Made by a program: the position numbers and the translations under genes. DNA of 64,000 bases, from positions 9,137 to 73,136 of the forward strand of contig JBMNNJ010000001.1 in NCBI GenBank assembly GCA_050953885.1, read 5' to 3'. Each line of letters starts with the position of its first letter. Within the stretch, counting starts at the first letter, position 1. The notes under the pieces were generated by a model. That model was not told the origin of the DNA. It ran no database searches and was given only the letters and a program-made list of their open reading frames with translations. The DNA is from Patescibacteria group bacterium. GTDB lineage: Bacteria; Patescibacteriota; Microgenomatia; 0-14-0-10-38-17. This document shows, one piece after another, positions 3,801 to 62,779 of the stretch.

Positions 3801-3950
3801 TGGGTAATAAGAAAGCGCAAAGCGTAAAACGCAAAGATTAGAACCTAATTCAAAATTTAAAAGTCAAAAGTACAAGTTAAAATTAAAAAGTAGAGCAAAA
3901 AAAACTTTTAACTTTGATCCGCCGGCTGGCGGATTGACTTTTACCTTTTG
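3801..3950. repeat. AAAAG-heptamer palindromic element between secD and secF
   Basis: gcgcaaagcgtaaaacgcaaag...caaaatttaaaagtcaaaagtacaagttaaaatt...ccgccggctggcgg...ttttgcgc. Confidence 0.55.
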
Positions 3951-3967
3951 AATTATTTTTGCGCCAG

Positions 3968-4915: not shown

Positions 4916-4938
4916 CCTTTGATTAACAGTAGTTCGTT

Positions 4939-4975: not shown

Positions 4976-5007
4976 AACGATGTTTTTCCCGCCAGTTGAG
5001 TAAGGTC

Positions 5008-7423: not shown

Positions 7424-7488
7424 CTTTTTAAGTATAGCAGGTTTTAAATAATAGTGATTTTTGAAAAAATAGTATAATATCAGTTATT

Positions 7489-8016
7489 ATGGGAAAAGAA
7501 AGAGAGAACTATAGCAGTGAGGATATTGATCGGAAAGGCACTAATTGCTCTTCTTTTTGTGCCTCTTTTTTGAGGTTGGGGGAAAATTATGGTCGGAAGA
7601 TAGAAGTGGAAGAGTGGCTTTCAAGATTAGTGGAGTCGTCAACAGCAATTTATGAAAATCTTGATGAATCTTTGGCGGCGCCAATTAGTGATATTATTTA
7701 TCACTTTGTAGATGAAGGAAAAGAAAAAGAGGCTTTTGCCCAATTCCCCTGCCTCTTATCACCCGAAGAAAGCCAATATTTTGCCGTGGAGTCATTATTT
7801 TTTATAGGCTTTGAAGTCGGTAGCCAAAAATTTAAGAATTTATCGGAGGAGGAGTCTTTTAGAAGAACCTTTACAATTCTTAAAAAGATACGTTTTTTAA
7901 ATGACCAAGGCGAGGAATTTTCGTCAAAAGTATTTAGCGAAGGAGTGTTTTTGGGTAAATTATTTAAGGGCAGGAACACAATATTCTTAAAAACATATCC
8001 CTTTTGTCTCAATTAA
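7489..8016 (+). CDS. hypothetical protein
   Basis: ORF only; no recognisable motif. Confidence 0.3.
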   Translation: MGKERENYSSEDIDRKGTNCSSFCASFLRLGENYGRKIEVEEWLSRLVESSTAIYENLDESLAAPISDIIYHFVDEGKEKEAFAQFPCLLSPEESQYFAVESLFFIGFEVGSQKFKNLSEEESFRRTFTILKKIRFLNDQGEEFSSKVFSEGVFLGKLFKGRNTIFLKTYPFCLN

Positions 8017-8044
8017 ATTAAGTTTTTTCCGAGGTTCGAACCTT
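8014..8044. repeat. short CCGAGGTTCGAACC palindromic hairpin (related to the CCGAGG hairpin family) between convergent genes
   Basis: ccgaggttcgaaccttgg palindrome; shares CCGAGGTTCGAA core with elements at 9261, 27843 and 34973. Confidence 0.5.
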
Positions 8045-8105
8045 GGGAAAAGGAAAGAAGTAAGCTTGGTAAAAAACCAAAAGCTTTGCTAAAATTTTTG
8101 GCTGA

Positions 8106-9236: not shown

Positions 9237-9260
9237 AAGTTCATTTTAGCAAAAATTGCT

Positions 9261-9320
9261 TTTCCCGAGGTTCGAAGCTAATCAACCCCCGGAGTTAACT
9301 AGCTTCAAACCTCGGGAAAA
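9261..9320. repeat. 60-bp hairpin repeat element (CCGAGG family, copy A1)
   Basis: 20-bp inverted arms tttcccgaggttcgaagcta / tagcttcaaacctcgggaaa around loop atcaacccccggagttaac; sits in the divergent region between DUF763 and recJ. Confidence 0.7.
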
Positions 9321-9369
9321 GAGGCGTTTTGGTTTCTGGTGGTGGCAAGAGAAAGGTTTTTCTTCTATA

Positions 9370-11070
9370 ATGATTCTTATGGAGGAAAAGTGGCAGATTA
9401 AGGGAGAGATTAAAAGTAAAGAAAAAAAAGAACGGCGCGAGGAAATTATTAATCTTTTGCTTTTGAACCGGGGCATTTCCCCCGTTGAAAAGGAGATTTT
9501 TTTTAATCCTCCTTCGCCAAAGTCGCTGACGGCTGAAGAAGTAGGTCTTTCGCCCGCCTCGCTTTCGCAGGCGAGGAGAAAAATTTTGGCGGCCAAGGAG
9601 AAAAGGCAAAAGATTTTAATTTTTGGCGATTATGATGTGGACGGCATTTGCGGGACGGCGGTTTTGTGGGAAGCTCTTTGGCAGAAGGGCTTTGATGTTT
9701 TGCCCTATCTTCCCAAGAGAAGTGAAGGCTATGGCGTTAGCGCTAAAACAATCGCCCGCCTTAAAAAAGAAAATCCCGGTCTAGGCTTGGTAATCACCGT
9801 TGATAATGGCATTGTTGCCCGGGAAGAAATTGAAGGAATTTTAAAGCAGGGTGTTGAGGTGGTGGTGAGCGACCACCATTTAAAGCAGGAAAAGAAAACA
9901 CCTAAGGCAACTTTAGTTTGGAGCCCGAAAATTTGCGGGGCGGCGGTGGCTTATTTTTTAGCGGCCGAATTTAGTGATGACTCCGATGGTCTTGATTTGG
10001 TGGGGCTGGCAACGGCGGCGGACTTGATGCCTCAGACAATGGTTAATCGGATTTTTTTAAAAGCCGGCCTGCGCTCTTTGCGGCAAACTTCTCGGCCGGG
10101 CCTTTTGGCGTTATTTAATGAGGCAGGGATTCAAAAAGATTTGCTTGACTCTTACCACTTGGGTTATATTATCTGCCCGCGTCTTAACGCTACCGGTCGG
10201 CTTGATGACGCGATGGACTCGTTGCGGCTTTTGTGCACCCGCGATACCCAGCGGGCTGCTGGCTTGGCTAAAAGATTAGGGCAAGAGAACCAAGCGCGGC
10301 AAAACCTTACCCAAAAAGCGCTGGCGCAAGCAGAAGCGGAAATTTTAAAAAATCCTGAGGAGCAAAAACTGCTTTTTGTTTATTCTCCCGATTTTCATCC
10401 GGGAATTATTGGTTTGGTGGCGGGAAAATTAGCGGATAAGTTTTGCCGGCCGGCGGTGGTGGCGACGGCGGTGGACGGGATAATTAAGGCCTCTTGCCGT
10501 TCTCCGGAGGGTTTTAATATCTTGTTGGCGCTTAAAAAAATTGAAGACTATTTTTTTGATTTGGGCGGTCATCCCCGCGCCGCCGGCTTAAGTTTTTCTA
10601 AAAAAAATCTTTCCAAGGTTCAAAAAGCTTTAACACAAATTGGGCGGGAAATTAATCCGCGGCTTTTGGTTCCCAAGCTTAACATTGATGCCCAAGTGCG
10701 TTTTTCCGATTTAAATTTTACTCTTTGGGAACTTTTGGAAAAATTTTCTCCCTTTGGTTTGGGTAATCCCCAACCGCTTTTTTCTACCCCGGATGTTATA
10801 ATTGGAGGAGTAAGGAGACTGGGTCAAAACGGGGCGCATTTGCGTTTGATTTTGGATGATTTGTCCACCCGGCGGGAGGAAAAAGCGGTGGCTCTCTGGC
10901 CGGCGCAGGAGTCGGAGGCGGTTTTTGACGGGGTGGGCTTTAATATGGGGAATTTGGACTTAAAAGCCGGCGACCGGGTGGCTGTTGCCTACCACCTCTC
11001 CCTTAATGAATGGCAAGGGCGAAGAAATTTAGAATTAAAATTAGTCTCCCTTAAGAAAAAGAATGATTAA
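9370..11070 (+). CDS. recJ: single-stranded-DNA-specific exonuclease RecJ (start adjusted to internal Met; the 9256 start overlaps the repeat)
   Basis: DHH motifs (ILIFGDYDVDGICG, VSDHH), DHHA1 and C-terminal OB domains. Confidence 0.85.
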   Translation: MILMEEKWQIKGEIKSKEKKERREEIINLLLLNRGISPVEKEIFFNPPSPKSLTAEEVGLSPASLSQARRKILAAKEKRQKILIFGDYDVDGICGTAVLWEALWQKGFDVLPYLPKRSEGYGVSAKTIARLKKENPGLGLVITVDNGIVAREEIEGILKQGVEVVVSDHHLKQEKKTPKATLVWSPKICGAAVAYFLAAEFSDDSDGLDLVGLATAADLMPQTMVNRIFLKAGLRSLRQTSRPGLLALFNEAGIQKDLLDSYHLGYIICPRLNATGRLDDAMDSLRLLCTRDTQRAAGLAKRLGQENQARQNLTQKALAQAEAEILKNPEEQKLLFVYSPDFHPGIIGLVAGKLADKFCRPAVVATAVDGIIKASCRSPEGFNILLALKKIEDYFFDLGGHPRAAGLSFSKKNLSKVQKALTQIGREINPRLLVPKLNIDAQVRFSDLNFTLWELLEKFSPFGLGNPQPLFSTPDVIIGGVRRLGQNGAHLRLILDDLSTRREEKAVALWPAQESEAVFDGVGFNMGNLDLKAGDRVAVAYHLSLNEWQGRRNLELKLVSLKKKND

Positions 11071-12565
11071 GCTTAAAAAAGAAGCGCTCGATTTTTCTAA
11101 TCTTTTAAAAAAGGTTTCTTCTTATCACCCTGCCCCCGATTTTTCCCTACTGGAAAGAAGTTATCAGTTGGCCCAAGAGGCTCATCAGGGGCAAAAGCGA
11201 CTTTCTGGCGAGCCGGTAATTAACCATTGCTTAACAGTGGCCCATTATTTGGCCGATTGGCGTCTGGATTGCGCTTCTCTTGCCGCCGGGTTGCTTCATG
11301 ATGCGGTCGAAGATACCAGCCTTGGCTTGGAAAAGATTAAAAAAGAATTAGGGGAGGATGTGGCTAAATTAGTCGACGGGGTAACTAAAGTAGGCCGCTT
11401 AAGGATGCGAGGTCCGGCCAGCGAGGATTTTATTGAAACCTTGCGGAAGATGTTTTTGGCCATGTCGCGCGATTTGCGGGTGGTGATTATTAAAATTGCC
11501 GACCGCTACCATAATATGAAAACGCTTGAATATCTTCCCCCCGATAAAGCAAGGGGGATTGCCGAGGAAACCTTGGAGGTTTATGCGCCCTTAGCCGAAC
11601 GGTTGGGGATTGGGGAAATTAAAGGCCAGCTTGAAGATCTGGCTTTCCCCTATGTTTATCCCGAAGATTATCAGTGGCTAAAAAAATACGCCGCTCCCTA
11701 TTACCAGAAGGCAGAGAAGCGAATTGAGCGGGTGAGGCGGGAGCTTTTGCATGCTTTGGCGCAGGAAGGCTTGCGGGTGGAAATAAACGGTCGGGCGAAG
11801 CATCTTTATAGTCTTTGGCGCAAGCTTTTACGACCGGAAATTAATAAAGACATTGAAAAGGTTTACGACTTAATGGCTTTGCGTATTCTAACCGAGCGGA
11901 TGGCGGATTGCTACACGGCCCTTGGGGTGGTCCATAAGCTTTATCGGCCGGTTCCTTATTTGGGAGTGCGTGATTGGATTGCCCAACCCAAACCTAATGG
12001 CTACCAGTCGATTCACACCAATGTTTTTTTAGGTGACGGCCGGATTATTGAGGTGCAAATTCGCACCCGCCGAATGCACGAACAGGCTGAGTATGGTATT
12101 GCCGCCCATTGGTATCTGGCCCAACTAAAGTTAAAAAATAAATTAACCTCAAAGATAATCGATGAGGGAAGGTTTTTCTCGCCGGCAGAAAAATTGACTT
12201 GGGTGCGTCAGCTGGCCGATTGGCAAAAAGAAATTATCGATTCCCATGAGTTTATTGACTCGGTTAAATTTGACGCTCTTTCTCACCGGATTTTTGTTTT
12301 TTCTCCCAAGGGGGACGCCTATGATCTTCCTGAAGGAGCCACGCCGGTAGATTTTGCTTATGCAGTTCATAGCCAGTTGGGAGACCAAGCCGTTGGGGCA
12401 AAGGTGAACGGAAAAATGGTTCCTCTTGATTATCATCTTAAAAGTGGGGAAGTAGTGGAAATTTTAGTTAATAAAAACAAGAAAAGCCCATCGGCTGATT
12501 GGCTTGATTTTGTGGTTACCCGTCAGGCAAGGAAGAAAATTAGCCAAAAATTAAGGTATAATTAG
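11063..12565 (+). CDS. relA/spoT: RelA/SpoT-family (p)ppGpp synthetase/hydrolase (short form: HD + synthetase + TGS)
   Basis: HD domain (HD at LLHDAVEDT), synthetase motif (RAKHLYSLWRK), TGS domain; the recJ-relA adjacency is conserved in many bacteria. Confidence 0.85.
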   Translation: MIKLKKEALDFSNLLKKVSSYHPAPDFSLLERSYQLAQEAHQGQKRLSGEPVINHCLTVAHYLADWRLDCASLAAGLLHDAVEDTSLGLEKIKKELGEDVAKLVDGVTKVGRLRMRGPASEDFIETLRKMFLAMSRDLRVVIIKIADRYHNMKTLEYLPPDKARGIAEETLEVYAPLAERLGIGEIKGQLEDLAFPYVYPEDYQWLKKYAAPYYQKAEKRIERVRRELLHALAQEGLRVEINGRAKHLYSLWRKLLRPEINKDIEKVYDLMALRILTERMADCYTALGVVHKLYRPVPYLGVRDWIAQPKPNGYQSIHTNVFLGDGRIIEVQIRTRRMHEQAEYGIAAHWYLAQLKLKNKLTSKIIDEGRFFSPAEKLTWVRQLADWQKEIIDSHEFIDSVKFDALSHRIFVFSPKGDAYDLPEGATPVDFAYAVHSQLGDQAVGAKVNGKMVPLDYHLKSGEVVEILVNKNKKSPSADWLDFVVTRQARKKISQKLRYN

Positions 12566-12576
12566 AAAGATTAAAA

Positions 12577-12626
12577 GACGCGAATGGACACGAATAGGAA
12601 ACGAATAGACGCGAATGAGCGAATAA
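12577..12626. repeat. phased ACGAAT tandem repeat block (copy 2)
   Basis: gacgcgaatg gacacgaatag gaaacgaatag acgcgaatga gcgaata: 10-11-bp units; followed by hairpin ggggcgtaTTGCatacgcccg at 12632-12652. Confidence 0.6.
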
Positions 12627-12674
12627 AATGTAGGGGCGTATTGCATACGCCCGCAACAATTTAGCAATTTAATA

Positions 12675-14045
12675 ATGAAGTCTCTATTTTCCGACCGCAC
12701 TCTTATTGCCGAGACGCCCCAAAAGGTTGGTCAAAAAGTGAGGCTTTTTGGCTGGGTTAACAGCGTTCGTGATCATGGAAAACTGGTTTTTGTGGATCTT
12801 CGCGATCAAAGTGGCGTTGTCCAAATCGTTGGCGTCAAAGAAGTTTTAGGCAGGGTTAAAAATGAATTTGTGGTTTGTCTTGAGGGGGAGGTAAAAAAGC
12901 GGCCGGAAAAGTTAGTTAATCCTAAAATTAGCACTGGCGGGGTGGAAGTGGCGGCCAAAAGTTTGGAAATTTTATCATCAGCCAAAGAATTACCTTTTGA
13001 TATTTACGGTACGGGACGAAAAATAAACGAGGATTTACGCTTAAAATATCGCTATCTTGACCTGCGCCGGCCACGATTACGAAATAATTTATTTCTCCGC
13101 CACCAACTTTTACAAACTTTTCGCCAAACATTGGTGAAGCATGGTTTTTGGGAAGTAGAGACGCCTAATTTAAGCAAATCTACCCCCGAGGGAGCGCGGG
13201 ATTTTTTAGTGCCCTCTCGACTTCAGCCGGGAAAATTTTATGCCCTGCCCCAAAGCCCCCAACAGTACAAGCAACTTTTAATGGTGGCCGGTTTGGAGCG
13301 TTATTTTCAAATTGCCGCCTGTTTTCGTGATGAAGATTTGCGGGCTGATCGCCAGCTTGAGTTTAAGCAAGTTGATTTGGAAATGTCGTTTGTTGATAGG
13401 GAAGCGGTTTTGGCGGAAGTGGAAGAAGTAATGATTGAGGTAATGAAGGCTCTTGGGAAGCCAATTTCAAAAATCCCCTTTCCCCGCTTAACTTATAAAG
13501 AAGCGCTGGAGAAGTATCATTCTGATAAGCCCGATTTACGGTCAAAAAAAGATGAGAAAAAATTTGCCTTTGCCTGGGTGATTGACTTTCCGCTTTTTGA
13601 AAAAACACCCCAGCGGACAATTGCCCCGGTACATCACCCTTTTACCAGCCCTAATCCTGAAGATTTGCCGCTTTTGGAAAAAAGCCCTTTAAAAGTGCGT
13701 TCCTGGCAATATGATTTAGTTTGTAACGGGCAGGAAGTGGGGGGAGGGAGCATCAGGATCACTGATCCCAAGATTCAGGAAAAAGTTTTTACGATTCTGG
13801 GCCACTCTAAAGAAGAAATTAGGCAAAAATTTGGCCATTTACTAACCGCTTTTGAATATGGCGTGCCGCCTGAAGGAGGGATTGCTTTGGGCTTTGATCG
13901 CTTGGCGGCAATTCTTTCCGGTGAGGAGAGCATTCGCGAGGTGATTGCTTTTCCGGTTAATACCGCTGGTAAAACGGCGGTAATGGACGCTCCCTCCACG
14001 GTTGCCGAAGAACAGCTGAAGGAGTTGGGGATAAAAATAAAATAA
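12675..14045 (+). CDS. aspS: aspartyl-tRNA synthetase (short type)
   Basis: N-terminal OB anticodon-binding domain; class II motifs (FRDEDLRADRQLEFKQVDLEMSF; GGGSIRI; GLGFDRL). Confidence 0.9.
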   Translation: MKSLFSDRTLIAETPQKVGQKVRLFGWVNSVRDHGKLVFVDLRDQSGVVQIVGVKEVLGRVKNEFVVCLEGEVKKRPEKLVNPKISTGGVEVAAKSLEILSSAKELPFDIYGTGRKINEDLRLKYRYLDLRRPRLRNNLFLRHQLLQTFRQTLVKHGFWEVETPNLSKSTPEGARDFLVPSRLQPGKFYALPQSPQQYKQLLMVAGLERYFQIAACFRDEDLRADRQLEFKQVDLEMSFVDREAVLAEVEEVMIEVMKALGKPISKIPFPRLTYKEALEKYHSDKPDLRSKKDEKKFAFAWVIDFPLFEKTPQRTIAPVHHPFTSPNPEDLPLLEKSPLKVRSWQYDLVCNGQEVGGGSIRITDPKIQEKVFTILGHSKEEIRQKFGHLLTAFEYGVPPEGGIALGFDRLAAILSGEESIREVIAFPVNTAGKTAVMDAPSTVAEEQLKELGIKIK

Positions 14046-14390
14046 AAGTCAAAATTCAAAATTAAAAATTCAAAAGTCAAAAGGCAAAAGGCAAAAAGTT
14101 AGCAACTCGTAATTATCTCCTGTCGGAAGACAGCGGACTGTCCGTTATTGTCATTCTGACGAAAGTCAGAATCTGCTTTTGGCAGGTATTAAGACAGATC
14201 CTGATTTCCATCAGGATGACGAATTGTACCCATTATACATTACGAGTTACACATTACATATTACGGATTGCTGATTTTTCATTTTGCTCCGCCAGCAGGC
14301 GGACAAGTCAAAAGTTAAAAGTTTCTGTTTTACTTTTAAATTTTAACTTGTACTTTTGACTTTTAAATTTTGAATTTTTACTTTATTTGG
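14046..14390. repeat. long composite palindromic intergenic element built from (A/C/G)AAAAG-type heptamers, with nested hairpin modules
   Basis: Left arm aaaagtcaaaattcaaaa...ggcaaaaag (14046-14098) complementary to right arm cttttgacttttaaattttgaattttt (14330-14385); internal hairpins tctgacgaaagtcaga, gatcctgatttccatcaggatg, ccgccagcaggcgg. Confidence 0.65.
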
Positions 14391-14393
14391 TTT

Positions 14394-15341
14394 ATGCCCT
14401 TTTTCAAGTTTCTTCCTCTTTTCCTACTTTCCCTTACTTTTCTTTTTTTGCCCGGCAATTCTTATTACGAAACTCTTAATTTAACACCGGCGGTTTCTAA
14501 AACAGCGTCTTTCGAGAGTTTTCCCTCGCTCCCACCTTTGCCGCAAAAGCGGCTAAACTTGCCGATTTCTTTAAGTGCTAAGGCCTCACTTTTACTTGAT
14601 TATTCCTCGGGGGTGGTTTTCTGGCGGCAAAATGAAGAAGAAAAACTCCCACCGGCCTCCTTGACCAAACTCATCACTGCTTTAATTGTTTTGGAGGAGA
14701 TGGATAAGGAACAAGTTGTTACCATTAATCGTGTCGAAAATTATGGGCAGGTGATGGGCTTGACAGCTGGCGAGCGAATGAAGGTAGACGATTTGCTTAA
14801 GGCGCTTTTAATTTTTTCCGCTAACGACGCCGCTTATGCTCTGGCGGATGCCTATCCCGGCGGCCGGGAAGCTTTTATTAACCGCGCCAATGCCCGGGTC
14901 CAAGAATTAGGCTTAAAAAATACCCATTTTGTTAACCCTAATGGTGAGGATAATCCTAACCATTATTCTACCGCTTGGGATTTGGCGCGTTTGGCCCAGA
15001 GGCTTTGGCGTTTTGAAGAATTTCGCCAGATTGTTTCTCAAAACCAGACACTTGTTTGCGATGTTAGCGGTTTGGTTTGTCATCCCCTTTATACTACCGA
15101 TGAGCTTTTGGGCGAATTCCCTGGCCTGGTGGGTGGCAAAACCGGCTTTACCGAGCAGGCAGGCGAATGTTTTCTTTCTTTTTGGGAGCTTGACGGGGTA
15201 CGACTTTTAAGCGTGGTTTTGGGAAGCGGTGATCGCTTTGGCGATACCCAAAAATTGCTTCAATGGGGTTTGACTAGTTTTGATTATTCGCCGGTGGAAG
15301 CGGTTTCTTTTATCCAAGAAGATTCGATAGCGGGAAGATAG
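14394..15341 (+). CDS. dacA: D-alanyl-D-alanine carboxypeptidase (peptidase S11, PBP5-like)
   Basis: Signal peptide; SxxK (ASLTK) and SxN (SAND) active-site motifs. Confidence 0.75.
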   Translation: MPFFKFLPLFLLSLTFLFLPGNSYYETLNLTPAVSKTASFESFPSLPPLPQKRLNLPISLSAKASLLLDYSSGVVFWRQNEEEKLPPASLTKLITALIVLEEMDKEQVVTINRVENYGQVMGLTAGERMKVDDLLKALLIFSANDAAYALADAYPGGREAFINRANARVQELGLKNTHFVNPNGEDNPNHYSTAWDLARLAQRLWRFEEFRQIVSQNQTLVCDVSGLVCHPLYTTDELLGEFPGLVGGKTGFTEQAGECFLSFWELDGVRLLSVVLGSGDRFGDTQKLLQWGLTSFDYSPVEAVSFIQEDSIAGR

Positions 15342-16357
15342 GCGATGAAGTCGTTATCCCCTTCAAAAACAAAAATAGGCTGGAGAAAATTTTGCGGCAA
15401 AGAAGGATCAAAATAGGCAAGATAAATACGGCGAATAATGACGGGTTTATCGGGAGTGTTGTTGCCTAAATTGCCCACGTAAGCCTTGCCAGCTTTAAGC
15501 TCTTCCCAGGCAAGGGTGGAATTTTTTAAAGGGTAGGTGGCCACTTGTTCTTGATGTATTGGGAAATGAATGTATTTGCCGGCAATAATTGTGGGTTTAC
15601 CTTCTTTTTGAGCAACAAAGAAAGAGATATTGCTGTCTTGAGGATTGGGAGGAAGAATGGGTAGGCCCTCTAAATCGGCGCGAAATAAATTAACCTTAAC
15701 CACCTCGGCTTCGGAAAGAGAAGGGACTAAAGTAAGCTCCCTTCTTTCCTGATGATATTTAAAAAAAAGATTTTTGGTTTTCTCCTCGTTTAAATCATTG
15801 GGCCAGCTGTTGCCGCGGCTAAGAAAATTTTTAATCTCATTTAAAGCTTGTTGGGGAGTGGGTGAGGCCAGGCCGGTAAAAAAGGGATCAGCCTCAAAGG
15901 GGTAACGAACTTCAAAATTTTCATTAAGCATATCAAGCTTTAGTATGGCATTGGTTTGCGGATTTTTAAAAGTATAGCGATAATAAGGATCACGGGTTAC
16001 TTCATTGGGAAATCCCAAAAGGCGGGCTTTTTCTCTCGTTTTTTCCTCGTCAAAGAATTTTGGCCCCACCGTAAAAACAAAGTAAACTTTGGCTTGGGTG
16101 GGCATGCTAGGTAAAACTCCTTCTATGGTTTGGAGTTGAAATTGGTATTCTCCTTGGGATTGGCTTTGGGGAAAGATAATCGCCGGGATTTGGCCAAAGG
16201 CCACGGTGGGGCCCGGCGGAGGCGCGGGATGGGTTTTTTCCCAATAGTTTTGAAAGGCGTTAAAGGCAGGGACAAGGATGCTAATGCCGATAATGCCGAT
16301 AATAGAGTATTTAATAACCTTGCGGGCAGTAACCGCTGTTTCGGTTAGGGTAGGCAT
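15284..16357 (-). CDS. hypothetical membrane-anchored protein
   Basis: N-terminal TM (YSIIGIIGISILVPAF) followed by extracytoplasmic domain; no known motif recognised. Confidence 0.4.
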   Translation of the reverse strand: MPTLTETAVTARKVIKYSIIGIIGISILVPAFNAFQNYWEKTHPAPPPGPTVAFGQIPAIIFPQSQSQGEYQFQLQTIEGVLPSMPTQAKVYFVFTVGPKFFDEEKTREKARLLGFPNEVTRDPYYRYTFKNPQTNAILKLDMLNENFEVRYPFEADPFFTGLASPTPQQALNEIKNFLSRGNSWPNDLNEEKTKNLFFKYHQERRELTLVPSLSEAEVVKVNLFRADLEGLPILPPNPQDSNISFFVAQKEGKPTIIAGKYIHFPIHQEQVATYPLKNSTLAWEELKAGKAYVGNLGNNTPDKPVIIRRIYLAYFDPSLPQNFLQPIFVFEGDNDFIAYLPAIESSWIKETASTGE

Positions 16358-16359
16358 GA

Positions 16360-16565
16360 AAAAAATTCAAAATTCAAAAGGCAAAAGTCATAAATTAAAA
16401 CTCAAAACGCAAATGGCAAATGGCAAAACTACATGGCAAATGTTAAAACTTTTTAAAACTTAAAGTTGTTTTTTAGTTTTGAGTTTTAACATGTAGTTTT
16501 ACGTTTTGCGTTTTGAGATTTGAGTTTATTTATTATCTTTAAGTTTTGATTTAGGCTTTGATTTT
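16360..16565. repeat. AAAAG-heptamer palindromic intergenic element
   Basis: ctcaaaacgcaaatggcaaa...aaactacatg mirrored by catgtagttttacgttttgcgttttgag; lies between divergent genes. Confidence 0.65.
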
Positions 16566-16622
16566 TGTACTTTGCATTGCCTTCTCTTGAGTATAGCACT
16601 GCCAAATGGTAAAATTCAAACT

Positions 16623-18032
16623 ATGAAAGAAAAGGTGCGTGTTCGTTTTGCTCCCTCGCCAACGGGTATTCCTCATATCGGCAACACCCGTACCGCTCTT
16701 TTTGATTGGCTTTTTGCCCGTCAAAATAGAGGCCAATTTGTTGTCCGGATCGAGGATACTGATAGAAAACGCTACCAACCTGAAGCGGAGGAAAAAATTT
16801 TGGAAATTTTGGAGTTTTTAGGTTTAAATTGGGATGAAGGACCAAAAATCGGCGGTCCTTATGGCCCTTATTTTCAATCCCAGCGCTTAGAACTTTATCG
16901 GCAGACAGCAGAGGAATTGGTGCAAAAAGGAGCGGCCTATTATTGTTTTTGCTCGCCCCAAAGACTTGAGAACTTAAGAAAAGAGCAAAAAGAAAGAGGG
17001 CAAATTCCCCGTTACGATCGCCACTGTCTTTTTTTGTCAAAAAAGGAAATTGAGGAAAAGAAACGCGCCGGCCGTTATGTGATTCGCTTAAAAATGCCCG
17101 ATAATAAAGTTTTTTCCTGGCAGGATTTAATCCAAGGAGAAGTGAGAATTAATGCCAAGGAAGTTGATGATCAGGTGCTTTTAAAATCCGACGGATTTCC
17201 TACTTATCATCTGGCGGTGGTGGTGGACGATCATTTGATGAAGATTTCCCATGTTTTTCGGGGGGTAGAGTGGATTTCCTCGGTTCCAAAACACTTGGCT
17301 TTGTACGAGGCCTTGGGTTGGGATGCGCCAAAAATGGCCCATTTGCCGTTAATTTTGGGGCCCGACCGAACGAAACTTTCCAAACGCCACGGAGCGAAAT
17401 CTGTTTTAGACTATCGTGATGAGGGTTATTTAAAAGAAGCCTTGATTAATTTTATGGCCTATTTGGGATGGTCATATAAAGACAATGCTCAACTTTTGTC
17501 GCTTGAAGAACTGAGGCGGGTTTTTAACCTTAAAAGCGTTCAAAAACAAAACGCGATTTTTGATATTAAAAAACTTGACTGGTTTAATGGCCAGTACATT
17601 AGAATGAAGAGCAATGAAGAACTGGTAAAACTTTTAAAGCCTTTTGCTCCAAAAGAAGCCTCGGAAGAAATTTTGGCAAAAATCATTCCCTTAATTAAAG
17701 AAAGAATTGTCAAGTTATCCGATTTTCAAAGTTTGGCCGGTTTTTTCTTTAAAAGACCAAAACCAACTCCTTCTTTATTTAAAGATAAAAATTATAAAAA
17801 CTATCTGGAAAAAGCCGTTGAGGCACTACAGTCTATTGAAGTATGGAATGAACCGGAAATTACCAACGCTTTAATGGCTTTAATTGAAAAAAACGGCTGG
17901 AAAACCGGCGATTTTTTTATGGCTTTGCGAATTGCCATTACCGGTTCTTCTTTTACCCCCCCGATCAACGATTCAATGGCCATTTTAGGCCGCGAGGAAA
18001 CGCTTTCGCGCCTCAAACTGGCGGCGAAATAA
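16623..18032 (+). CDS. gltX: glutamyl-tRNA synthetase (start adjusted to MKEKVRVRF)
   Basis: HIGH motif (PSPTGIPHIGN), KMSKS (KLSKR); class I catalytic core. Confidence 0.9.
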   Translation: MKEKVRVRFAPSPTGIPHIGNTRTALFDWLFARQNRGQFVVRIEDTDRKRYQPEAEEKILEILEFLGLNWDEGPKIGGPYGPYFQSQRLELYRQTAEELVQKGAAYYCFCSPQRLENLRKEQKERGQIPRYDRHCLFLSKKEIEEKKRAGRYVIRLKMPDNKVFSWQDLIQGEVRINAKEVDDQVLLKSDGFPTYHLAVVVDDHLMKISHVFRGVEWISSVPKHLALYEALGWDAPKMAHLPLILGPDRTKLSKRHGAKSVLDYRDEGYLKEALINFMAYLGWSYKDNAQLLSLEELRRVFNLKSVQKQNAIFDIKKLDWFNGQYIRMKSNEELVKLLKPFAPKEASEEILAKIIPLIKERIVKLSDFQSLAGFFFKRPKPTPSLFKDKNYKNYLEKAVEALQSIEVWNEPEITNALMALIEKNGWKTGDFFMALRIAITGSSFTPPINDSMAILGREETLSRLKLAAK

Positions 18033-19717: not shown

Positions 19718-20296
19718 TTCGACTCGCTACGCTTGCTCATGGCTATAGCCGGAAGGGAATCAGTTCTCAAAGAATTTGACATAACGATTATTTCCTATTA
19801 TTTCCCAGAATTTAAAGAAGAATTGATTGAGAAATTAAGAAAACAAAAGGAGCCAAAAGGGAGGCAGAATTTCTAAAATTAAAAAAGTGTGTTTATCTTG
19901 ATATCTTTCAACACATCAAGAACGTCATCATGTAAATAGTTAACTTTATTTTTCGTTTCTCTTGAATAATCTGCAATATCTGCTACCCAATTCCAAACAT
20001 CCTCAAAATTAGATCGCATATTTCTAATTTGAATAGAAATATAAATTAAAAAGATAAAGAAAATCAACCATCTATTATTTTCAATAAATCTATTAATTTT
20101 TTTATCATAATATTACTATAACATTTTGATATTTTTTAAGATTATACTAATTTAGCTTCCAGAAATGACTCCTCTAGAAGCTAAAACCATAAAGCTAATA
20201 GTCTGTTAGAATATTTATAGAAAAACATTCAAGTAGAATCTCTGACACTGATTGTGAATTTTACGGGCGTAGAAAATTAATTCAATCATTTGAAAA

Positions 20297-21691
20297 ATGA
20301 ATGACCAAATATTAAAAATAATCCGGGGAAAAAAGAATAGTTCTTGGTGGTTAAAATCAGAAAAAAAGGTTATTGACAGATACGGTTATATTTTCCAACC
20401 AGGCAATTTGGGCAATCTGACAAAAGAAGACTTCTTATCATTTTTGCTTGTTAAAAACAATCTTCATTGGGAAGGAATCCATCGCCACCAGGAGTCTATT
20501 ATTTTGGATATGGAGAAACTAAAACGAACATTAACTTTTTTATTGAATGAATCAAAGAGTCTTACTGATCGCCTAAATAGTCTTTCGCCTAAAAATGGAG
20601 AATATTATATTAAGGGTCTTGGAAAAGCTATTATCACCCCAATATTGCTTGTTGTTTATCCTGATAAATACGGGGTTTGGAATCAAAAAAGCGAAGATGC
20701 TTTAAAGAAATTAGAATTATTTCCTGAATTTCAAAGAGGAAATTCTTTTGGGGAAAAATATGCCAAGGTGAACAATGTTTTAAACAATTTAAAAGAAAAA
20801 TATGCGATTAGTCTTTGGCAGCTTGATGGTGTGTTAGGAGAAATTGCTGGCAATGGCCCGTTTGAAATAATTGTTGACGAAGAAAATAAAGAAAAGGAAA
20901 TAGAAAAGAAAGATAAACAACTAATAAGATTTTGTAAATATTGTGGTGAAAGAATTGATGCCGACTCGATATATTGTTGTTTTTGTGGCAGAAAGATAGT
21001 CTCAAAAATAAATGAAAGAAAAAGTTACAAAAGATTGAGCTTTTATTCTCGAGAAGAATTATTAGAATATGCCGAATTTGTTAATAAAAATTATCGTTTG
21101 GGTGATAAAGGACTTTTGTATTACAAAAAAGTAATCGGTTTTCATAAAAAATACGGTGATATCAAAGGGCTTTTGAGAGATGAAGATTTTTTAAAAACTA
21201 TTTATGAGACCCTTAAGGCTTGGAATATGAATCAAAGAGGTGCTAGGTTAAAAAGTCTACCTGAAATTAAAAAATCGATCTTAAATTTAGAGGATGACAT
21301 ATCTTGGCTATCTAATTATGAATTAGACTCTTTAAAAGAAGCCGAACTTGAAGAAGTTCTTAATAAACTTAAAAAGGTTTTTATCAATTTAAAACCAATG
21401 AAATCGAGGACTCAAATCGTAGGTACCTCAAAATTAATGCATTTTTTATTGCCAAATTTAGTGATGCCGATGGATAGAAAATACACCTTAAGTTTTCTTT
21501 CTCTAGGTCATAATTATTGGAAGGATATTAGAGCAGAATTTGATGAATTTAAAAGAGTTTTTATAATATTTTATAGATATGCTGAAAAATTTAGTTTGAC
21601 CGTTGACGATACAGATGATCAAGCCTGGAATCTATCAGTACCAAAAATTATTGACAATGCGATTATTGGTGTTCAGAAATCTAATAATTAA
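20297..21691 (+). CDS. hypothetical protein with central Zn-ribbon (CKYCGERIDADSIYCCFCGRKI), in AT-rich island
   Basis: Long ORF in a visibly AT-rich tRNA-adjacent segment; only the CxxC...CxxC ribbon is recognisable. Confidence 0.4.
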   Translation: MNDQILKIIRGKKNSSWWLKSEKKVIDRYGYIFQPGNLGNLTKEDFLSFLLVKNNLHWEGIHRHQESIILDMEKLKRTLTFLLNESKSLTDRLNSLSPKNGEYYIKGLGKAIITPILLVVYPDKYGVWNQKSEDALKKLELFPEFQRGNSFGEKYAKVNNVLNNLKEKYAISLWQLDGVLGEIAGNGPFEIIVDEENKEKEIEKKDKQLIRFCKYCGERIDADSIYCCFCGRKIVSKINERKSYKRLSFYSREELLEYAEFVNKNYRLGDKGLLYYKKVIGFHKKYGDIKGLLRDEDFLKTIYETLKAWNMNQRGARLKSLPEIKKSILNLEDDISWLSNYELDSLKEAELEEVLNKLKKVFINLKPMKSRTQIVGTSKLMHFLLPNLVMPMDRKYTLSFLSLGHNYWKDIRAEFDEFKRVFIIFYRYAEKFSLTVDDTDDQAWNLSVPKIIDNAIIGVQKSNN

Positions 21692-21712
21692 AAATGACAA
21701 GCATACTATACA

Positions 21713-21752
21713 CTACTACACACCCGATGTGATTTACCCTTTGCACATCGGG
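21713..21752. repeat. CACCCGATGTG hairpin repeat (copy 1, includes 19-bp half-site ctactacacacccgatgtg)
   Basis: cccgatgtg-atttaccctttg-cacatcggg; 21713-21731 is the exact reverse complement of 26421-26439. Confidence 0.65.
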
Positions 21753-21856
21753 ATAAATAGGAGAATCATTTTTTAACCAGAGATTTATTTTTAACTAAGC
21801 CAATTATCAGAAAGAGCTGGAGAAGATTAAACATTTAACCTGGGAAAACTGATTTT

Positions 21857-21890
21857 GCCGATGTGCCATATCTGTTGCATATCGGGTGCG
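21857..21890. repeat. CACCCGATGTG hairpin repeat (degenerate copy 2)
   Basis: gccgatgtgcc-atatctgtt-gcatatcgggtgcg. Confidence 0.5.
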
Positions 21891-21963
21891 CAAGTCCTAG
21901 TTGTTTATTATTACAATGGGTAACGCAAAAGAGGTACTAAGTCAAGCAAGGGAATGGGTAATT

Positions 21964-23037
21964 TTAGATTTTTGTTAGTTCTCTTAAAAATCCTTCGAAT
22001 TGATCAGTTTGAAGGTCTTTGAGTTGTATTCGTGCAATTTTTCCGAATTGCTCGCCTCTGAAGGATACTCTTTCAAATTTGAAGGGCACCTTACTTAATA
22101 CCTTTTCAACGCCTTCTTTGTTTTTACTTGTTACCCAAATTTGAAAACCTCCACCTTCTGCGTCAGGATTTAACGGCAAGTTAATTGAAACTTTGTCATT
22201 AAAGGAAGTAACTGCATAAAAGTTAAGATACTTGGGAGATTTTGCAGATGAAATATTTGGGTAATTAGTCTGGTTACTGTTAATCTTATTCATTAAATCT
22301 AATAATTCAATAACTCGTTTTTCTTCAGGTCTTCCTCTGTAATAACTTAAAAATTCGTCGTCGGTTGGAACTATTTTTGAAGGTGTTGACTTACCGATGT
22401 CTTTTTTAATTTCGGCTCCATATAGCTTAGGAATTAGGATTTCAAAATTCTGATGTTTGTAAAATTCCAATTCAACTGCATAAATTGTAAACTCGCTATT
22501 ATTATTTAAAAAAACAATTAAATCTTTTAATTGAAGAGGGAGATGATCCATTAGGACCACAAACTTAAAGTTACCGTCATTCAAATTTCTTCTGATATTT
22601 TCCAAAAGAATATCGATTTCTTCTTCTGGAATATTAAAAAATTCATTTAGCCTTTGATTTAAAGTTTTGTTAAAATCCTTATTGATGTGTATATTAATTT
22701 GTTCAATAAAATCGGCAAAATCTCGATAGTTTGACCATAACGAAGCACCATAATCCAAAACTTGAGCAACCACAGTTCTTTTATCCGGGTTTTTATAAAG
22801 TTTGGTTTCAACAAGATAAATTTCGCCTTCTTTATCGACCCCTAGGGCATCAATCGGCCCACTGGCTGTATTAAATTCTCGAGCCAGAATCAAAAGCCGA
22901 ATATCTTCTTTAATATCATAAAGAGGAATACTTTCCGGATTATTGTAGATATATTGTTGAAGATGATCTTCTAGCTCGAAGTTACTTTTGTCTATTTTGA
23001 CTGCGTTTTTGCCGTTTCTTGAGATGATAATTGCCAT
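21964..23037 (-). CDS. PD-(D/E)xK nuclease-family protein (NucS/DUF91-like N-terminal domain) with unknown C-terminal domain
   Basis: Motif GPIDALGVDKEGEIYLVETK (D-x(n)-E-x-K) near the N-terminus; AT-rich island; flanked by hairpin repeats on both sides. Confidence 0.45.
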   Translation of the reverse strand: MAIIISRNGKNAVKIDKSNFELEDHLQQYIYNNPESIPLYDIKEDIRLLILAREFNTASGPIDALGVDKEGEIYLVETKLYKNPDKRTVVAQVLDYGASLWSNYRDFADFIEQINIHINKDFNKTLNQRLNEFFNIPEEEIDILLENIRRNLNDGNFKFVVLMDHLPLQLKDLIVFLNNNSEFTIYAVELEFYKHQNFEILIPKLYGAEIKKDIGKSTPSKIVPTDDEFLSYYRGRPEEKRVIELLDLMNKINSNQTNYPNISSAKSPKYLNFYAVTSFNDKVSINLPLNPDAEGGGFQIWVTSKNKEGVEKVLSKVPFKFERVSFRGEQFGKIARIQLKDLQTDQFEGFLRELTKI

Positions 23038-23301
23038 TTTCCCTCCAATTTTTTAATTGCCGGAGGGGATTAACTACAAAAGCTCCCCGTCAGCTGATGG
23101 TTCTTACGGAATCCACCCGCCAATCTTTCGATTGGTAACCTGCAGAAGATAACACTGGCGAAAAGCTTTCGCCTCTTCTGCAGGATTTTCTTGCCATGCC
23201 CAAAGGCTTGCGCCTCTGAGTTTAGACAATATTATTGTTAAGGTGATTATATAAAATTAGGGGTAGCTTTTCAAGTCTTCGTAATGTTCAGTTAACAGTA
23301 A

Positions 23302-26176: not shown

Positions 26177-26420
26177 TGAAAAGATTATAGCAAAAATCGC
26201 CGGCAGTGGTTACGGAAATACTATGTAGTATTTCCGTAACCAGGCGTAAATTAGGGGATAGTTCCTCTGATGTGTCTATTTAACCCACACCAGTGTGTTT
26301 ATCTCTGCTGCCGCCAAATTTCGTTTTTTGCTTCGCAAAAAGCGCCGCAAGAAAAGGTGTTGCCCTTGTCCCAGCTCTCCCTTGCGCGGGTAACGATAAA
26401 GAACTCTCTAATTTAGTAAA

Positions 26421-44755: not shown

Positions 44756-44756
44756 G

Positions 44757-44885
44757 AAAAAAATTCAAAATTCAAAAGTCAAAATTCAAAAGTGCAAGTA
44801 AAAATTTAAAATTAAAACAAAAAACTTTTGACTTTTAACTTTTACATTTTGAATTTGTTTGCGATTTATCCGATAGTTAGCCTCG
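44757..44885. repeat. AAAAG-heptamer palindromic intergenic element (between iscS and iscU)
   Basis: aaaattcaaaagtcaaaattcaaaagtgcaagtaaaaatt mirrored by aacttttgacttttaacttttacattttgaattt. Confidence 0.65.
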
Positions 44886-46140: not shown

Positions 46141-46275
46141 CTAATTAATGCAAAATGCAAAAATCAAAGATCAAAACCTAGATTAAAATTTAAAAATATT
46201 TTTAAATTCTTGTTATTAATTTTTGGTATTTGATCTAGGCTTTGCGTTTTGCGTTTTGAGTTTTGCACTTAAGCT
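46141..46275. repeat. AAAAG-heptamer palindromic intergenic element (divergent iscS/tatD region)
   Basis: tgcaaaatgcaaaaatcaaagatcaaaacctagat mirrored by atctaggctttgcgttttgcgttttgagttttgca. Confidence 0.65.
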
Positions 46276-47148: not shown

Positions 47149-47157
47149 AAAACGCGA

Positions 47158-62624: not shown

Positions 62625-62762
62625 TACAAAGATAAGATTAGATATCAAATATCAATCCGCCAGCTGGCGGAGCAAAGTCAAAATCAAAGACCAAAATTAA
62701 AGATAGATAATGTTTTTAAACTTTAATCTTGGTTTTGCTCTTTGCTCTTTGCGTTTTACATT
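62625..62762. repeat. AAAAG-heptamer palindromic intergenic element (ruvB-efp)
   Basis: atccgccagctggcggagcaaagtcaaaatcaaagaccaaaattaaag mirrored by ctttaatcttggttttgctctttgctctttgcgtttt. Confidence 0.6.
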
Positions 62763-62779
62763 TATTTTTCTATTTTTAT

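What the first reader, a model, noticed from the sequence alone, without database searches (positions are those of the whole stretch)
16360..16565. Genome-dispersed AAAAG-heptamer palindromic intergenic elements (at least six loci in 64 kb)
Intergenic regions at 3801-3950, 14046-14390, 16360-16565, 44757-44885, 46141-46275 and 62625-62762 are all built the same way. A run of degenerate (A/C/G/T)CAAAA(G/T) heptamers is followed by its reverse complement, predicting 40-60-bp imperfect hairpins or cruciforms. They occur between convergent, divergent and co-directional genes, even inside the iscS-iscU operon. This looks like a lineage-specific REP-like family.
Basis: seen in the sequence. Interest (0 to 1): 0.55.

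Follow-up and report, generated by a model that had tools for sequence, protein, structure and literature searches.

The report
Dispersed heptad-built palindromic intergenic repeats
Six gene spacers in this Shapirobacteria-like genome hold copies of one repeat family, mirror-image arrays of a 7-base unit (KTCAAAA); they behave like small insertional repeats that come and go between relatives, and similar elements also occur in an unrelated soil phylum.

Summary
Period-7 A-rich or T-rich arrays occur only at the six reported loci: 10 arrays against 0.3 expected. A covariance model built mostly from copies found elsewhere hits exactly these six loci (E 4e-10 to 2e-4) and nothing in 1.28 Mb of control DNA.

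Each element is an A-rich array of the heptad KTCAAAA followed by its mirror array TTTTGAM. This polarity is near-absolute: 34 adjacent array pairs against 1.

The pairing comes from the shared heptad consensus, not from compensatory change. 76.6% of cells pair, against 80.1% when partners are swapped between copies.

The elements behave as insertions. Three sites are empty in relatives at 72-74% GltX identity, and the iscS leader holds four different variants in four close relatives. A 129-nt core recurs at 92% identity in an unrelated gene context, and heptad-sized indels separate orthologous copies.

Three elements also carry a nested 16-nt GC palindrome, TCCGCCAGCTGGCGGA.

Best reading: a non-autonomous foldback family like MITE, ERIC or Correia elements, co-transcribed in leaders and operon spacers. 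It is not a classical REP, terminator or structured RNA. It is also not lineage-specific: the same architecture occurs in contigs of 58-67% GC, one of them from Vicinamibacterales, also between iscS and iscU.

The parts
3806..3960 (.). Element E1, between secD (2427-3800) and secF (4013-4915). A-arm 3812-3900, short T sub-arm 3901-3917, nested GC core TCCGCCGGCTGGCGGA 3918-3933, distal T-arm 3934-3960.
   Evidence: Sequence. Period-7 array. R1 42.5 bits, E 8e-6. MFE z -4.0. Flanking genes from Pfam. The left arm matches rc(E2 right arm) better (score 88) than rc of its own right arm (34).
14040..14390 (.). Composite element E2, between a class II aaRS gene (12675-14045) and dacA (14394-15341). 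Outer A-array 14040-14100. Nested small hairpins and CATTACA heptads 14101-14287. GC core TCCGCCAGCAGGCGGA 14288-14303. Inner palindrome and T-arm 14304-14390.
   Evidence: Sequence. TRF period 7, 7.6 copies. MFE -111.9 kcal/mol, z -10.3, with the outer arrays pairing around the insert. R1 35.3 bits at 14301-14362. The site has no spacer in L008, L009 and L012.
16358..16566 (.). Element E3 (the reported locus), between the start codon of a 357-aa membrane protein gene (15284-16357, minus) and the gltX promoter. A-arm 16358-16450, loop about 16451-16474, T-arm 16475-16566.
   Evidence: Sequence. Inverted repeat of 53 nt, 77% complementary. R1 63.8 bits, E 4e-10. MFE z -4.5. Identical in L001 and L003. 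Four assemblies break at its centre. The site is about 30 nt and empty in L008, L009, L010 and L012, and filled with a different variant in L007. Its core recurs at 92% over 129 nt in L160 between an rsmI-like and a dedA-like gene.
16587..16619 (.). Back-to-back promoter-like sites conserved in all relatives. gltX: TTGAGT-17-TAAAAT with TG (plus strand). Membrane-protein gene: TTGAAT-18-TATACT with TG (minus strand). They place E3 inside the inferred 5' leader of the minus-strand gene.
   Evidence: Consensus scan. The TTGAGTATAGCAC...TGnTAAAAT block is conserved in the window, L007, L008, L009, L010 and L012. Promoter activity is inferred, not shown.
44756..44862 (.). Element E4, the simplest full copy, between iscS (44918-46084, minus) and intein-containing iscU (43199-44755, minus). 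It abuts the iscU start codon. A-arm 44756-44820, T-arm 44821-44862.
   Evidence: Sequence. Inverted repeat of 37 nt, 86% complementary. R1 about 46 bits (training member). The orthologue in L211 differs by a 23-nt heptad-scale indel. L209 and L207 carry other modules at the same spacer. It shares the 26-mer CATGAAAAAAATTCAAAATTCAAAAG with E3.
46141..46275 (.). Element E5, between iscS (minus) and tatD (46334-47148, plus). It lies downstream of a conserved TGgTATAAT pointing toward iscS, so it sits in the inferred iscS leader.
   Evidence: Sequence. R1 57.3 bits, E 9e-9. MFE z -5.7. The same site holds four different variants in the window, L212, L209 and L207.
62625..62765 (.). Element E6, between ruvB (61568-62560) and efp (ATG at 62781). 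GC core TCCGCCAGCTGGCGGA 62656-62671, A-arm 62673-62712, T-arm 62713-62765. It is preceded by a canonical terminator-like hairpin plus T-run at about 62570-62592.
   Evidence: Sequence. R1 37.4 bits, E 8e-5. MFE z -5.4. L207 has an E4-type element at the orthologous spacer. The right arm resembles rc of E5's left arm (score 66).

Best explanation
The six loci are copies of a family of small, non-coding, non-autonomous palindromic repeats. They are foldback or MITE-like, comparable to ERIC, Correia or BOX elements.

**Anatomy.** Each copy has two arms. Each arm is a tandem array of four to eight copies of one degenerate heptad: KTCAAAA on the A-rich arm, and its mirror TTTTGAM on the other. There is a defined outer end (AATTCAAAA...), a landmark unit (GTRCAAGT) and a short loop.

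**Inferred life cycle:**
- Copies are added to gene spacers by copy-and-paste or by recombination between elements. They often land in or next to an existing element or the small GC palindrome TCCGCCAGCTGGCGGA, giving nested mosaics.
- The arms then grow and shrink by slippage of whole heptads.
- Because they sit between a promoter and its gene, or between genes of one operon, they are carried in the mRNA as AU-rich, mismatch-interrupted hairpins. These are too weak to stop transcription.

**Shown here:** the family, its architecture, its polarity, insertion/absence and turnover between relatives, heptad indels, and the lack of copy-specific base-pair compensation.

**Inferred, not shown:** mobility as the cause of spread, the enzyme responsible (unknown), co-transcription, and near-neutrality.
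For: - **Family and specificity.** R1 finds the six loci and nothing else in the window. It gives 0 hits in 1.28 Mb of control loci, 86 hits in 611 kb of pattern-selected metagenome loci and 35 more hits in later loci.
- **Arms resemble other elements more than their own partner.** E1-left against rc(E2-right) scores 88, while E1-left against its own partner scores 34. The alignments show a shared unit order and landmark.
- **Empty versus filled orthologous sites.** The E3 site and the E1 and E2 sites are empty in more distant relatives.
- **Turnover.** Four variants occupy the iscS-leader site in four genomes with 88-93% IscS identity. Copies within L207 resemble each other more than their positional counterparts in the window.
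- **Same core in an unrelated context.** L160 carries the E3 core at 92% over 129 nt, flanked by rsmI-like and dedA-like genes.
- **Heptad-scale indels.** These separate the window from L211 and from L160.
- **No covariation.** Paired cells are 76.6%, against 80.1% with partners shuffled between copies. RNAalifold finds no consensus structure.
- **Spacer types follow background.** 19 co-directional, 5 divergent and 4 convergent, against 473, 97 and 93 among all adjacent ORF pairs.
- **Assemblies break inside them**.
Against: - No target-site duplication could be shown. The one clean filled/empty pair (L209 against L212) offers at most a 2-nt AA.
- No autonomous partner was found. The only IS in the window (rve family, two copies) has unrelated ends. 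No Y1/RAYT gene was seen among the 30 ORFs scanned.
- The same heptad and the same A-then-T polarity recur in Acidobacteriota at 64% GC, again between iscS and iscU, with the A-arm nearly unchanged between L194 and L213. That is hard to explain by a selfish element alone and hints at a host function or a shared recognising protein.
- The arms abut stop and start codons within about 10 nt.
- There is a weak trend for the sense-strand RNA fold to be the more stable one: 19 of 26, p = 0.008 raw, p = 0.06 after a composition control.
Confidence: 0.55

Rival explanations
1. Host-functional RNA element. The A-arm/T-arm hairpin in the transcript acts as an intercistronic or leader device. It could be a decay barrier or RNase III site, a weak attenuator or bidirectional terminator, or a translational coupler: the ribosome ending at the upstream stop melts the A-arm and frees the U-rich arm next to the downstream start.
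For: - Strict 5'-A-arm, U-arm-3' polarity on whichever strand is read: 34 to 1, and 32 to 0.
- Arms start within about 10 nt of stop codons and end 0-40 nt before start codons.
- Start regions in this organism mostly lack a Shine-Dalgarno sequence.
- In Vicinamibacterales the iscS-iscU spacer always holds some palindrome: heptad type in L194 and L213, GC-rich hairpins in L214 and L215.
- The sense strand is more stable in 19 of 26 co-directional copies.
- Elements lie exactly between convergent stops in L087 and L187.
Against: - There is no compensatory change, and RNAalifold gives no consensus structure.
- The sense/antisense difference is largely compositional (p = 0.06 after control).
- Sister lineages do without the elements at three sites.
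- An efficient terminator would silence secF, iscU, iscS and the membrane-protein gene.
- E6 follows a separate canonical terminator-like hairpin.
- Only E1's GC core passes a simple terminator scan.
Confidence: 0.2
2. Protein-binding heptad platform. Each heptad is a binding unit for a DNA- or RNA-binding protein, and the mirrored arrays are two oppositely oriented binding tracts. Candidates are a ribbon-helix-helix-type regulator that polymerises on 7-bp repeats, a nucleoid protein, the sigma -35 reader (TTGACT/TTGAAT), or a cold-shock or S1-type protein on U-rich RNA.
For: - Conservation lies in the heptad sequence on each arm, in exact mirrored register. Pairing falls from 76.6% to 57-60% when the register slides by 1.
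- The degenerate positions vary independently on the two arms.
- The same heptad occurs in two unrelated phyla.
- CspB is reported to bind T-rich heptamers, one protein per heptamer, as reviewed in PMC4679880.
- From my own knowledge, the omega repressor of pSM19035 binds arrays of 7-bp heptads in direct and inverted orientation.
Against: - No candidate protein was identified.
- Elements are absent from orthologous sites in relatives.
- Sites are scattered across unrelated housekeeping genes with no common theme.
- A consistent -10 partner is not found downstream of the T-arm heptads (manual inspection; scan).
Confidence: 0.12
3. Locally generated simple-sequence repeats. Replication slippage in AT-rich spacers creates heptanucleotide arrays de novo at each site, and hairpin-templated repair makes them palindromic. 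No copying between loci is needed.
For: - Heptanucleotide repeats are reported as the most abundant long SSR class in many bacteria (cited in PMC4679880).
- Heptad-sized indels separate orthologous copies.
- Other contigs carry period-7 arrays with other units (L027, L119).
Against: - Non-periodic parts are shared at about 90% identity between unrelated loci and genomes. These are the loop, the GTRCAAGT landmark and the 129-nt E3 core.
- The outer terminus is defined.
- Polarity is strict: 34 to 1.
Confidence: 0.08

Closest known systems
ERIC/IRU, Neisseria Correia elements, pneumococcal BOX/RUP (small non-autonomous imperfect palindromes; from my own knowledge)
   Same: They are 100-200 bp non-coding imperfect palindromes placed in transcribed spacers next to genes. 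They are present or absent at orthologous sites in relatives and form subfamilies. BOX is modular, with a variable number of tandem internal units. No encoded transposase is present.
   Different: Here the arms are themselves tandem arrays of a 7-nt unit. No target-site duplication was shown. The same design occurs in two unrelated phyla. No promoter, IHF site or RNase III site was demonstrated.
REP/BIME and REPIN elements with RAYT transposases (PMC3333891, PMC3116915, PMC2817692 listed; details from my own knowledge)
   Same: They are intergenic, palindromic and dispersed, clustered into mosaics, and found inside operons. The nested 16-nt GC palindrome TCCGCCAGCTGGCGGA has REP-like size and composition.
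   Different: REPs are 20-40 nt GC-rich hairpins with a conserved 5' tetranucleotide, tied to a RAYT gene. The heptad arms are long and AT-rich. No RAYT was seen in the 30 ORFs scanned.
Intergenic heptanucleotide direct repeats (TAACTGA in Beggiatoaceae, cyanobacteria and Bacteroidetes, PMC4679880; cyanobacterial STRR from my own knowledge)
   Same: The period is 7 nt. The repeats are intergenic, often directly upstream of start codons in genomes with few canonical ribosome-binding sites. Their phylogenetic distribution is patchy, relatives have shorter repeat-free spacers, and contigs break in them.
   Different: Those are direct repeats; only one indirect set among 170 is reported in that paper. 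The unit sequence is different, and no mirrored partner array or fixed polarity is described.
Bidirectional intrinsic terminators
   Same: They share the layout of A-rich flank, hairpin, T-rich flank, which reads the same on both strands. Some copies sit between convergent genes (L087, L187).
   Different: Most copies have no GC-rich stem. They lie inside operons and leaders, where termination would be harmful. E6 sits after a separate canonical terminator-like hairpin.

Membership tests
REP / REPIN | Short (about 20-40 nt) GC-rich imperfect palindrome with a conserved 5' tetranucleotide | tested here: not met
   The arms are 40-90 nt and 13-31% GC. Only the nested 16-nt core TCCGCCAGCTGGCGGA is GC-rich, and it is present in 3 of 6 elements.
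REP / REPIN | A RAYT (Y1 transposase) gene in the genome | tested here: inconclusive
   None was found among 30 window ORFs scanned against Pfam. The rest of the window and the genome were not examined.
MITE / foldback element | Terminal inverted repeats with a defined outer end, small size and no coding capacity | tested here: met
   The arms are mirrored in exact register. The outer end AATTCAAAA.../...TTTTGAATT is shared across copies. Length is 100-210 nt.
MITE / foldback element | Target-site duplication flanking the insertion | tested here: inconclusive
   Filled and empty sites are too diverged to read. L209 against L212 gives at most AA.
MITE / foldback element | Insertion polymorphism at orthologous sites | tested here: met
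   The E1, E2 and E3 sites are empty in L008-L012. Different variants occupy the E4, E5 and E6 sites in L207, L209, L211 and L212.
MITE / foldback element | A related autonomous element with the same ends | tested here: not met
   The only IS in the window (rve family, 26480-27592 and 42099-43322) has ends TGTCCAGGACATGC..., unrelated to the heptads. The whole genome was not available.
Intrinsic terminator | GC-rich stem directly followed by a U-run, placed at the end of a transcription unit | tested here: not met
   Only E1's GC core passes the scan. E1 and E4 lie inside secDF and iscSU, and E3 and E5 lie downstream of conserved promoter-like boxes.
Structured RNA family | Base pairs kept through compensatory changes, or a match to a curated family | tested here: not met
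   There is no Rfam match. RNAalifold predicts 0 pairs. All five measures are at or below the shuffle means.
Heptanucleotide simple-sequence repeat | Head-to-tail copies of a 7-nt unit, with copy number varying between relatives | tested here: met
   TRF finds period 7 with up to 8.4 copies. A one-unit indel separates the window from L160 and a 23-nt indel separates it from L211.
TIGR-Tas guide arrays | Array units of about 36 nt with box C/D-like motifs, next to a Nop-domain Tas gene | tested here: not met
   The period here is 7 nt. The paper describes 36-nt units. No Nop-domain protein was found among the ORFs scanned.

The most novel reading that the evidence does not exclude
The heptad arrays are not junk. 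They are a previously unrecognised, cross-phylum cis-element, present in Patescibacteria and Acidobacteriota. A conserved host protein reads the KTCAAAA/UUUUGAM units one per heptad. The fixed order (A-arm after the stop codon, U-arm before the start codon) lets it set the relative expression of neighbouring genes, such as iscS and iscU, in genomes that make little use of Shine-Dalgarno sequences.
Probability: 0.15. Interest if true: 0.75.

Novelty: new variant of a known kind. Interest (0 to 1): 0.5.

Why it matters
- Candidate-phyla-radiation genomes are tiny and thought to be streamlined. Yet this subclade has filled operon spacers and leaders with 100-350 nt of modular repeats. For example, asnS-dacA goes from overlapping genes to a 345-nt spacer.
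- The family gives a concrete marker for recent genome dynamics in uncultivated bacteria, and it explains why their assemblies break.
- It raises a testable puzzle: why do the same heptad and the same polarity appear in Acidobacteriota, at the same operon junction?
- If the elements prove functional, they would be a new class of intercistronic signal.
- If they prove selfish, they are a foldback repeat with an unknown mobilising enzyme.

Tried and rejected
- **Known RNA families.** Rfam at gathering score on the window and 20 loci, and at E <= 1 on 3700-16700, returned nothing at the elements.
- **TIGR guide arrays**, raised by a literature hit. Rejected on period: 36 nt against 7 nt.
- **Conserved RNA hairpin.** No consensus structure and no covariation.
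- **Strand-specific RNA selection.** The raw signal (p = 0.008) shrinks to p = 0.06 after a composition control, so it is inconclusive.
- **Outward promoter inside the T-arm.** TTGACT-17-TAnnnT fits E2 and L211 but not E3, E4, L160 or L209, so it is not general (manual reading; scan).
- **Preference for a spacer type.** None; the contexts follow background.
- **Link to the IS in the window.** Its ends are unrelated.
- **Viral carriage.** Ten pattern hits in IMG/VR, of which only one (L223) is a full element.
- **Strain-level polymorphism.** All contigs encoding the identical GltX or IscS are 100% identical in the elements.
- **Literature search by sequence strings and by CPR/heptanucleotide terms.** No description of this family was found.

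Full report
**Origin of the window**

GltX (16623-18032) is 78% identical to that of a Candidatus Shapirobacteria MAG (L007). It is 72-74% identical to four other Patescibacteria-type MAGs (L008, L009, L010, L012). IscS is 88% identical to a protein that NCBI names as Candidatus Shapirobacteria (P0005). The same sequence lies on JGI contig Ga0591961_000240, 114 kb. So this is a CPR genome of about 40% GC.

Yes.
- A detector for period-7 self-similarity in A-rich or T-rich DNA fires only at the six reported spacers. It finds 10 arrays. Dinucleotide shuffles of the window give 0.29, and shuffling each region in place gives 0.08.
- Tandem Repeats Finder independently reports period-7 arrays at all six.
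- The inverted-repeat finder reports 37-53 nt arms at E3 and E4.
- In each locus the A-rich array comes first and the T-rich array second.
- Predicted folding energies lie 2.9-10.3 standard deviations below shuffles that preserve the composition of each half.

**Family membership**

The arms of different elements align with one another and share an order of units:
- an outer end AATTCAAAA;
- three or four KTCAAAA units;
- an irregular landmark, GTRCAAGT;
- two more units;
- a short loop, then the mirror image.

E1's left arm matches the reverse complement of E2's right arm better (score 88) than that of its own right arm (34).

I built covariance model R1 from 16 full copies, only one of them (E4) from this window, with a 49-bp hairpin.
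- With filters off it finds E3, E5, E4, E1, E6 and the right half of E2 (63.8 to 35.3 bits, E 4e-10 to 2e-4). Nothing else in the window scores below E = 0.01.
- It finds nothing in 1.28 Mb of control loci around gltX from other bacteria.
- It gives 86 hits, roughly 45 elements counted on both strands, in 611 kb of metagenome loci that I had fetched with a 21-nt arm pattern. It gives 35 further hits in later loci.

The unit consensus over 545 units is K-T-C-A-A-A-A. TTCAAAA makes up 31% and GTCAAAA 25%.

**What is conserved: the heptad, not the pair**

RNAalifold predicts no consensus structure on the 16-copy alignment. When I impose the obvious hairpin, 76.6% of cells form standard pairs. Dealing the 3' partners out among copies gives 80.1%, and every covariation measure sits at or below the shuffle mean. 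Sliding the register by one column drops pairing to 57-60%.

So the two arms are exact mirror arrays of one degenerate motif, and the degenerate positions vary independently on each arm. This points to recognition of sequence on each arm, such as transposon ends or protein-binding units. It does not point to a base-paired RNA kept by compensation.

In co-directional contexts the sense-strand RNA folds more stably in 19 of 26 copies (p = 0.008). Much of this is compositional, with p = 0.06 after arm-preserving shuffles. I treat it as inconclusive.

**Polarity**

- Among adjacent A/T-rich arrays no more than 150 nt apart, the order A then T occurs 34 times and T then A once (binomial p = 2e-9).
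- Of 119 pattern hits with adequate flanks, 32 have a strong inverted partner downstream and none upstream.

This is inherent to a homologous element with fixed ends. It is also what an RNA-level function with a U-rich arm next to the downstream gene would require. It does not discriminate between the two.

**Context in the window**

| Element | Position |
|---|---|
| E1 | between secD and secF |
| E2 | between a class II aaRS gene and dacA |
| E3 | between a membrane-protein gene and gltX (divergent) |
| E4 | between iscS and an intein-bearing iscU |
| E5 | between iscS and tatD (divergent) |
| E6 | between ruvB and efp |

None is convergent here. Across all loci the contexts are 19 co-directional, 5 divergent and 4 convergent. 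This mirrors the background of adjacent ORF pairs, 473, 97 and 93. Arms usually begin within about 10 nt of a stop codon or end within 0-40 nt of a start codon. In genomes with very short spacers this is expected of any insertion.

**Comparative evidence: the strongest line**

(a) *E3 site.* In L008, L009, L010 and L012 the membrane-protein gene and gltX are separated by about 75 nt. That spacer contains only a conserved block, TTGAGTATAGCAC...TGnTAAAAT. The consensus scan reads this block as two back-to-back promoters. In the window and in L007 an element of about 200 nt lies between that block and the membrane-protein start codon, with very different sequence in the two genomes. If the promoters work as inferred, E3 is part of a 5' leader of about 225 nt.

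(b) *E1 and E2 sites.* secD-secF is 34 nt in L012. asnS-dacA overlaps or nearly abuts in L008, L009 and L012. The window has 212 and 345 nt at these sites.

(c) *E5 site.* A conserved TGgTATAAT pointing at iscS is followed by a different variant in each genome:

| Genome | IscS identity to window | Content after the TGgTATAAT box |
|---|---|---|
| L212 | 93% | only two heptads, the GC palindrome and two heptads |
| L209 | 92% | the same, plus a 115-nt E3-type insertion |
| Window | - | the E5 palindrome |
| L207 | 88% | an E1/E4-type element |

(d) *E4 site.* L211 has the orthologous element with a 23-nt heptad-scale indel. L209 has unrelated hairpin modules. L207 has an E1/E4-type copy placed at the other end of the spacer.

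(e) *Within-genome similarity.* The three L207 copies resemble each other more than they resemble the window's copies at the same sites.

(f) *Same core elsewhere.* The E3 core, including its non-periodic centre, recurs at 92% identity over 129 nt in L160. There it lies between an rsmI-like methylase gene and a dedA-like gene, unrelated to the window's flanks. One heptad is missing.

Together these show insertion, turnover, copying between loci and heptad slippage.

**Nested parts**

E1, E2 and E6 carry the 16-nt palindrome TCCGCC-NGCN-GGCGGA. It has 3 exact copies in the window against 0.87 pattern matches (up to 1 mismatch) expected, all inside elements. It also occurs in L007, L151, L160, L209 and L212, but in no other locus with AT-rich flanks. 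It is the REP-like piece and appears restricted to this subclade. E2 also contains small hairpins (GTCATTCTGAC-GAAA-GTCAGAATC and others) that recur, with changed stems, in L007, L151, L160, L207 and L209.

**Distribution beyond CPR**

Twelve of the pattern-selected contigs have 58-67% GC. They show the same design as an AT-rich island: A-arm, a variable and often GC-rich centre, then T-arm. Several score as full-length R1 matches (L135, L150, L163, L186, L092, L132, L194, L201).

L194's IscS is 91% identical to a protein that NCBI names as Vicinamibacterales. In L194 and in L213, which was fetched by IscS homology and not by the pattern, the element lies between iscS and iscU. Two other Vicinamibacterales contigs (L214, L215) have GC-rich hairpins at that spacer instead.

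I did not identify the hosts of the other contigs. Only one of ten IMG/VR pattern hits is a full element.

**Interpretation**

The weight of evidence favours a non-autonomous foldback repeat family that inserts into, and turns over within, gene spacers. It is carried passively in transcripts.

Against a terminator role:
- Most copies lack a GC stem.
- Four of the six sit where termination would silence secF, iscU, iscS or the membrane-protein gene.
- E6 follows its own terminator-like hairpin.

Against a structured-RNA role: there is no covariation and no Rfam match.

Against purely local slippage: non-periodic cores are shared between unrelated loci.

What keeps functional readings alive:
- the cross-phylum recurrence of the same heptad and polarity;
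- the repeat of the iscS-iscU position;
- the near-identity of the A-arm between L194 and L213;
- the tight fit between stop and start codons.

I could not show a target-site duplication or find a mobilising gene. The only IS in the window (rve family, two copies) has unrelated ends.

**Comparison with known systems**

- The closest in behaviour are ERIC, Correia and BOX-type small palindromic repeats.
- The closest in substructure are the intergenic heptanucleotide direct repeats described for Beggiatoaceae, cyanobacteria and Bacteroidetes (PMC4679880). Those are direct, not mirrored.
- The elements fail the defining features of REP (size, composition, RAYT not seen). They also fail those of intrinsic terminators and of TIGR arrays (36-nt units).
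- I found no description of this family in the searchable literature.

**Verdict**

The feature is real and is a new variant of a known kind. Interest is moderate. The open question worth pursuing is why one heptad grammar is shared by Patescibacteria and Acidobacteriota.

Noticed in passing
window 23096-23228 (-): A full-length match to the LOOT RNA family (RF03000): 65.5 bits against a gathering score of 46.4. It lies in a 282-nt spacer next to a low-GC region.
   Followed up: no
window 26480-27592 (-) and 42099-43322 (+), with flanks 27593-27712 and 41987-42098: Two inverted copies of an rve-integrase (IS481/IS3-like) insertion sequence share about 110 nt of identical flanking end sequence (TGTCCAGGACATGCTATACAC...). 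The second ORF overlaps the 3' end of iscU by about 120 nt.
   Followed up: partly
window 43199-44755 (-): IscU (NifU_N) is 518 aa and is interrupted by a LAGLIDADG domain, so it probably carries an intein. Relatives L207 and L211 have an uninterrupted IscU of 162-163 aa.
   Followed up: partly
window 3966-4016, 12580-12625, 47149-47200; also L151 and L160: A second repeat type: arrays of an ACGAAT-containing unit of about 10 nt (AAACACGAAT). They occur in three spacers in both orientations and sit beside the heptad elements in relatives.
   Followed up: no
window 9259-9321 and 34973-35031; half-copies near 8025-8050 and 27890-27925: A 29-31 nt near-perfect palindrome (TTTCCCGAGGTTTGAAGCTA...TAGCTTCAAACCTCGGGAAA). 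In two places it lies just upstream of a TTGGyC...TGGTGTTAAAAT promoter-like sequence. It may be an operator shared by several genes.
   Followed up: no
window 50747-50920: Two to three tandem GC-rich hairpin units (GGAGTAGCGCAGTTTACTGCGCGC...GCGCGAACTAAAGTTCGCTACTCC) follow the ABC transporter genes.
   Followed up: no
window 6403-6430, 7424-7450, 16607-16625, 26177-26200: Several genes have a TGnTATAAT-type box ending 6-9 nt before the ATG and no Shine-Dalgarno sequence. This suggests frequent leaderless or very short-leader mRNAs in this organism.
   Followed up: no
window 12640-12674; L008 900-925; L209 11350-11381; L007 5295-5335: Short arrays of an 8-nt unit (AACAATTT/AGCAATTT) lie directly before start codons of different genes in several related genomes.
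   Followed up: no
window 20000-22000 and 52000-56000: Two stretches of much lower GC (0.30-0.33, against about 0.41 elsewhere) hold ORFs with no confident Pfam match. Examples are 20297-21691, and 21964-23037 with a weak NucS_C hit. They may be acquired DNA.
   Followed up: no
L027 and L119 (whole loci): Other contigs carry dense period-7 arrays built from different units (ATCAAAT, AATACTT, ATTTTCA, CCGAAAT). One array pair in L119 runs in the opposite, T-then-A order. So heptad arrays as such are broader than this family.
   Followed up: partly
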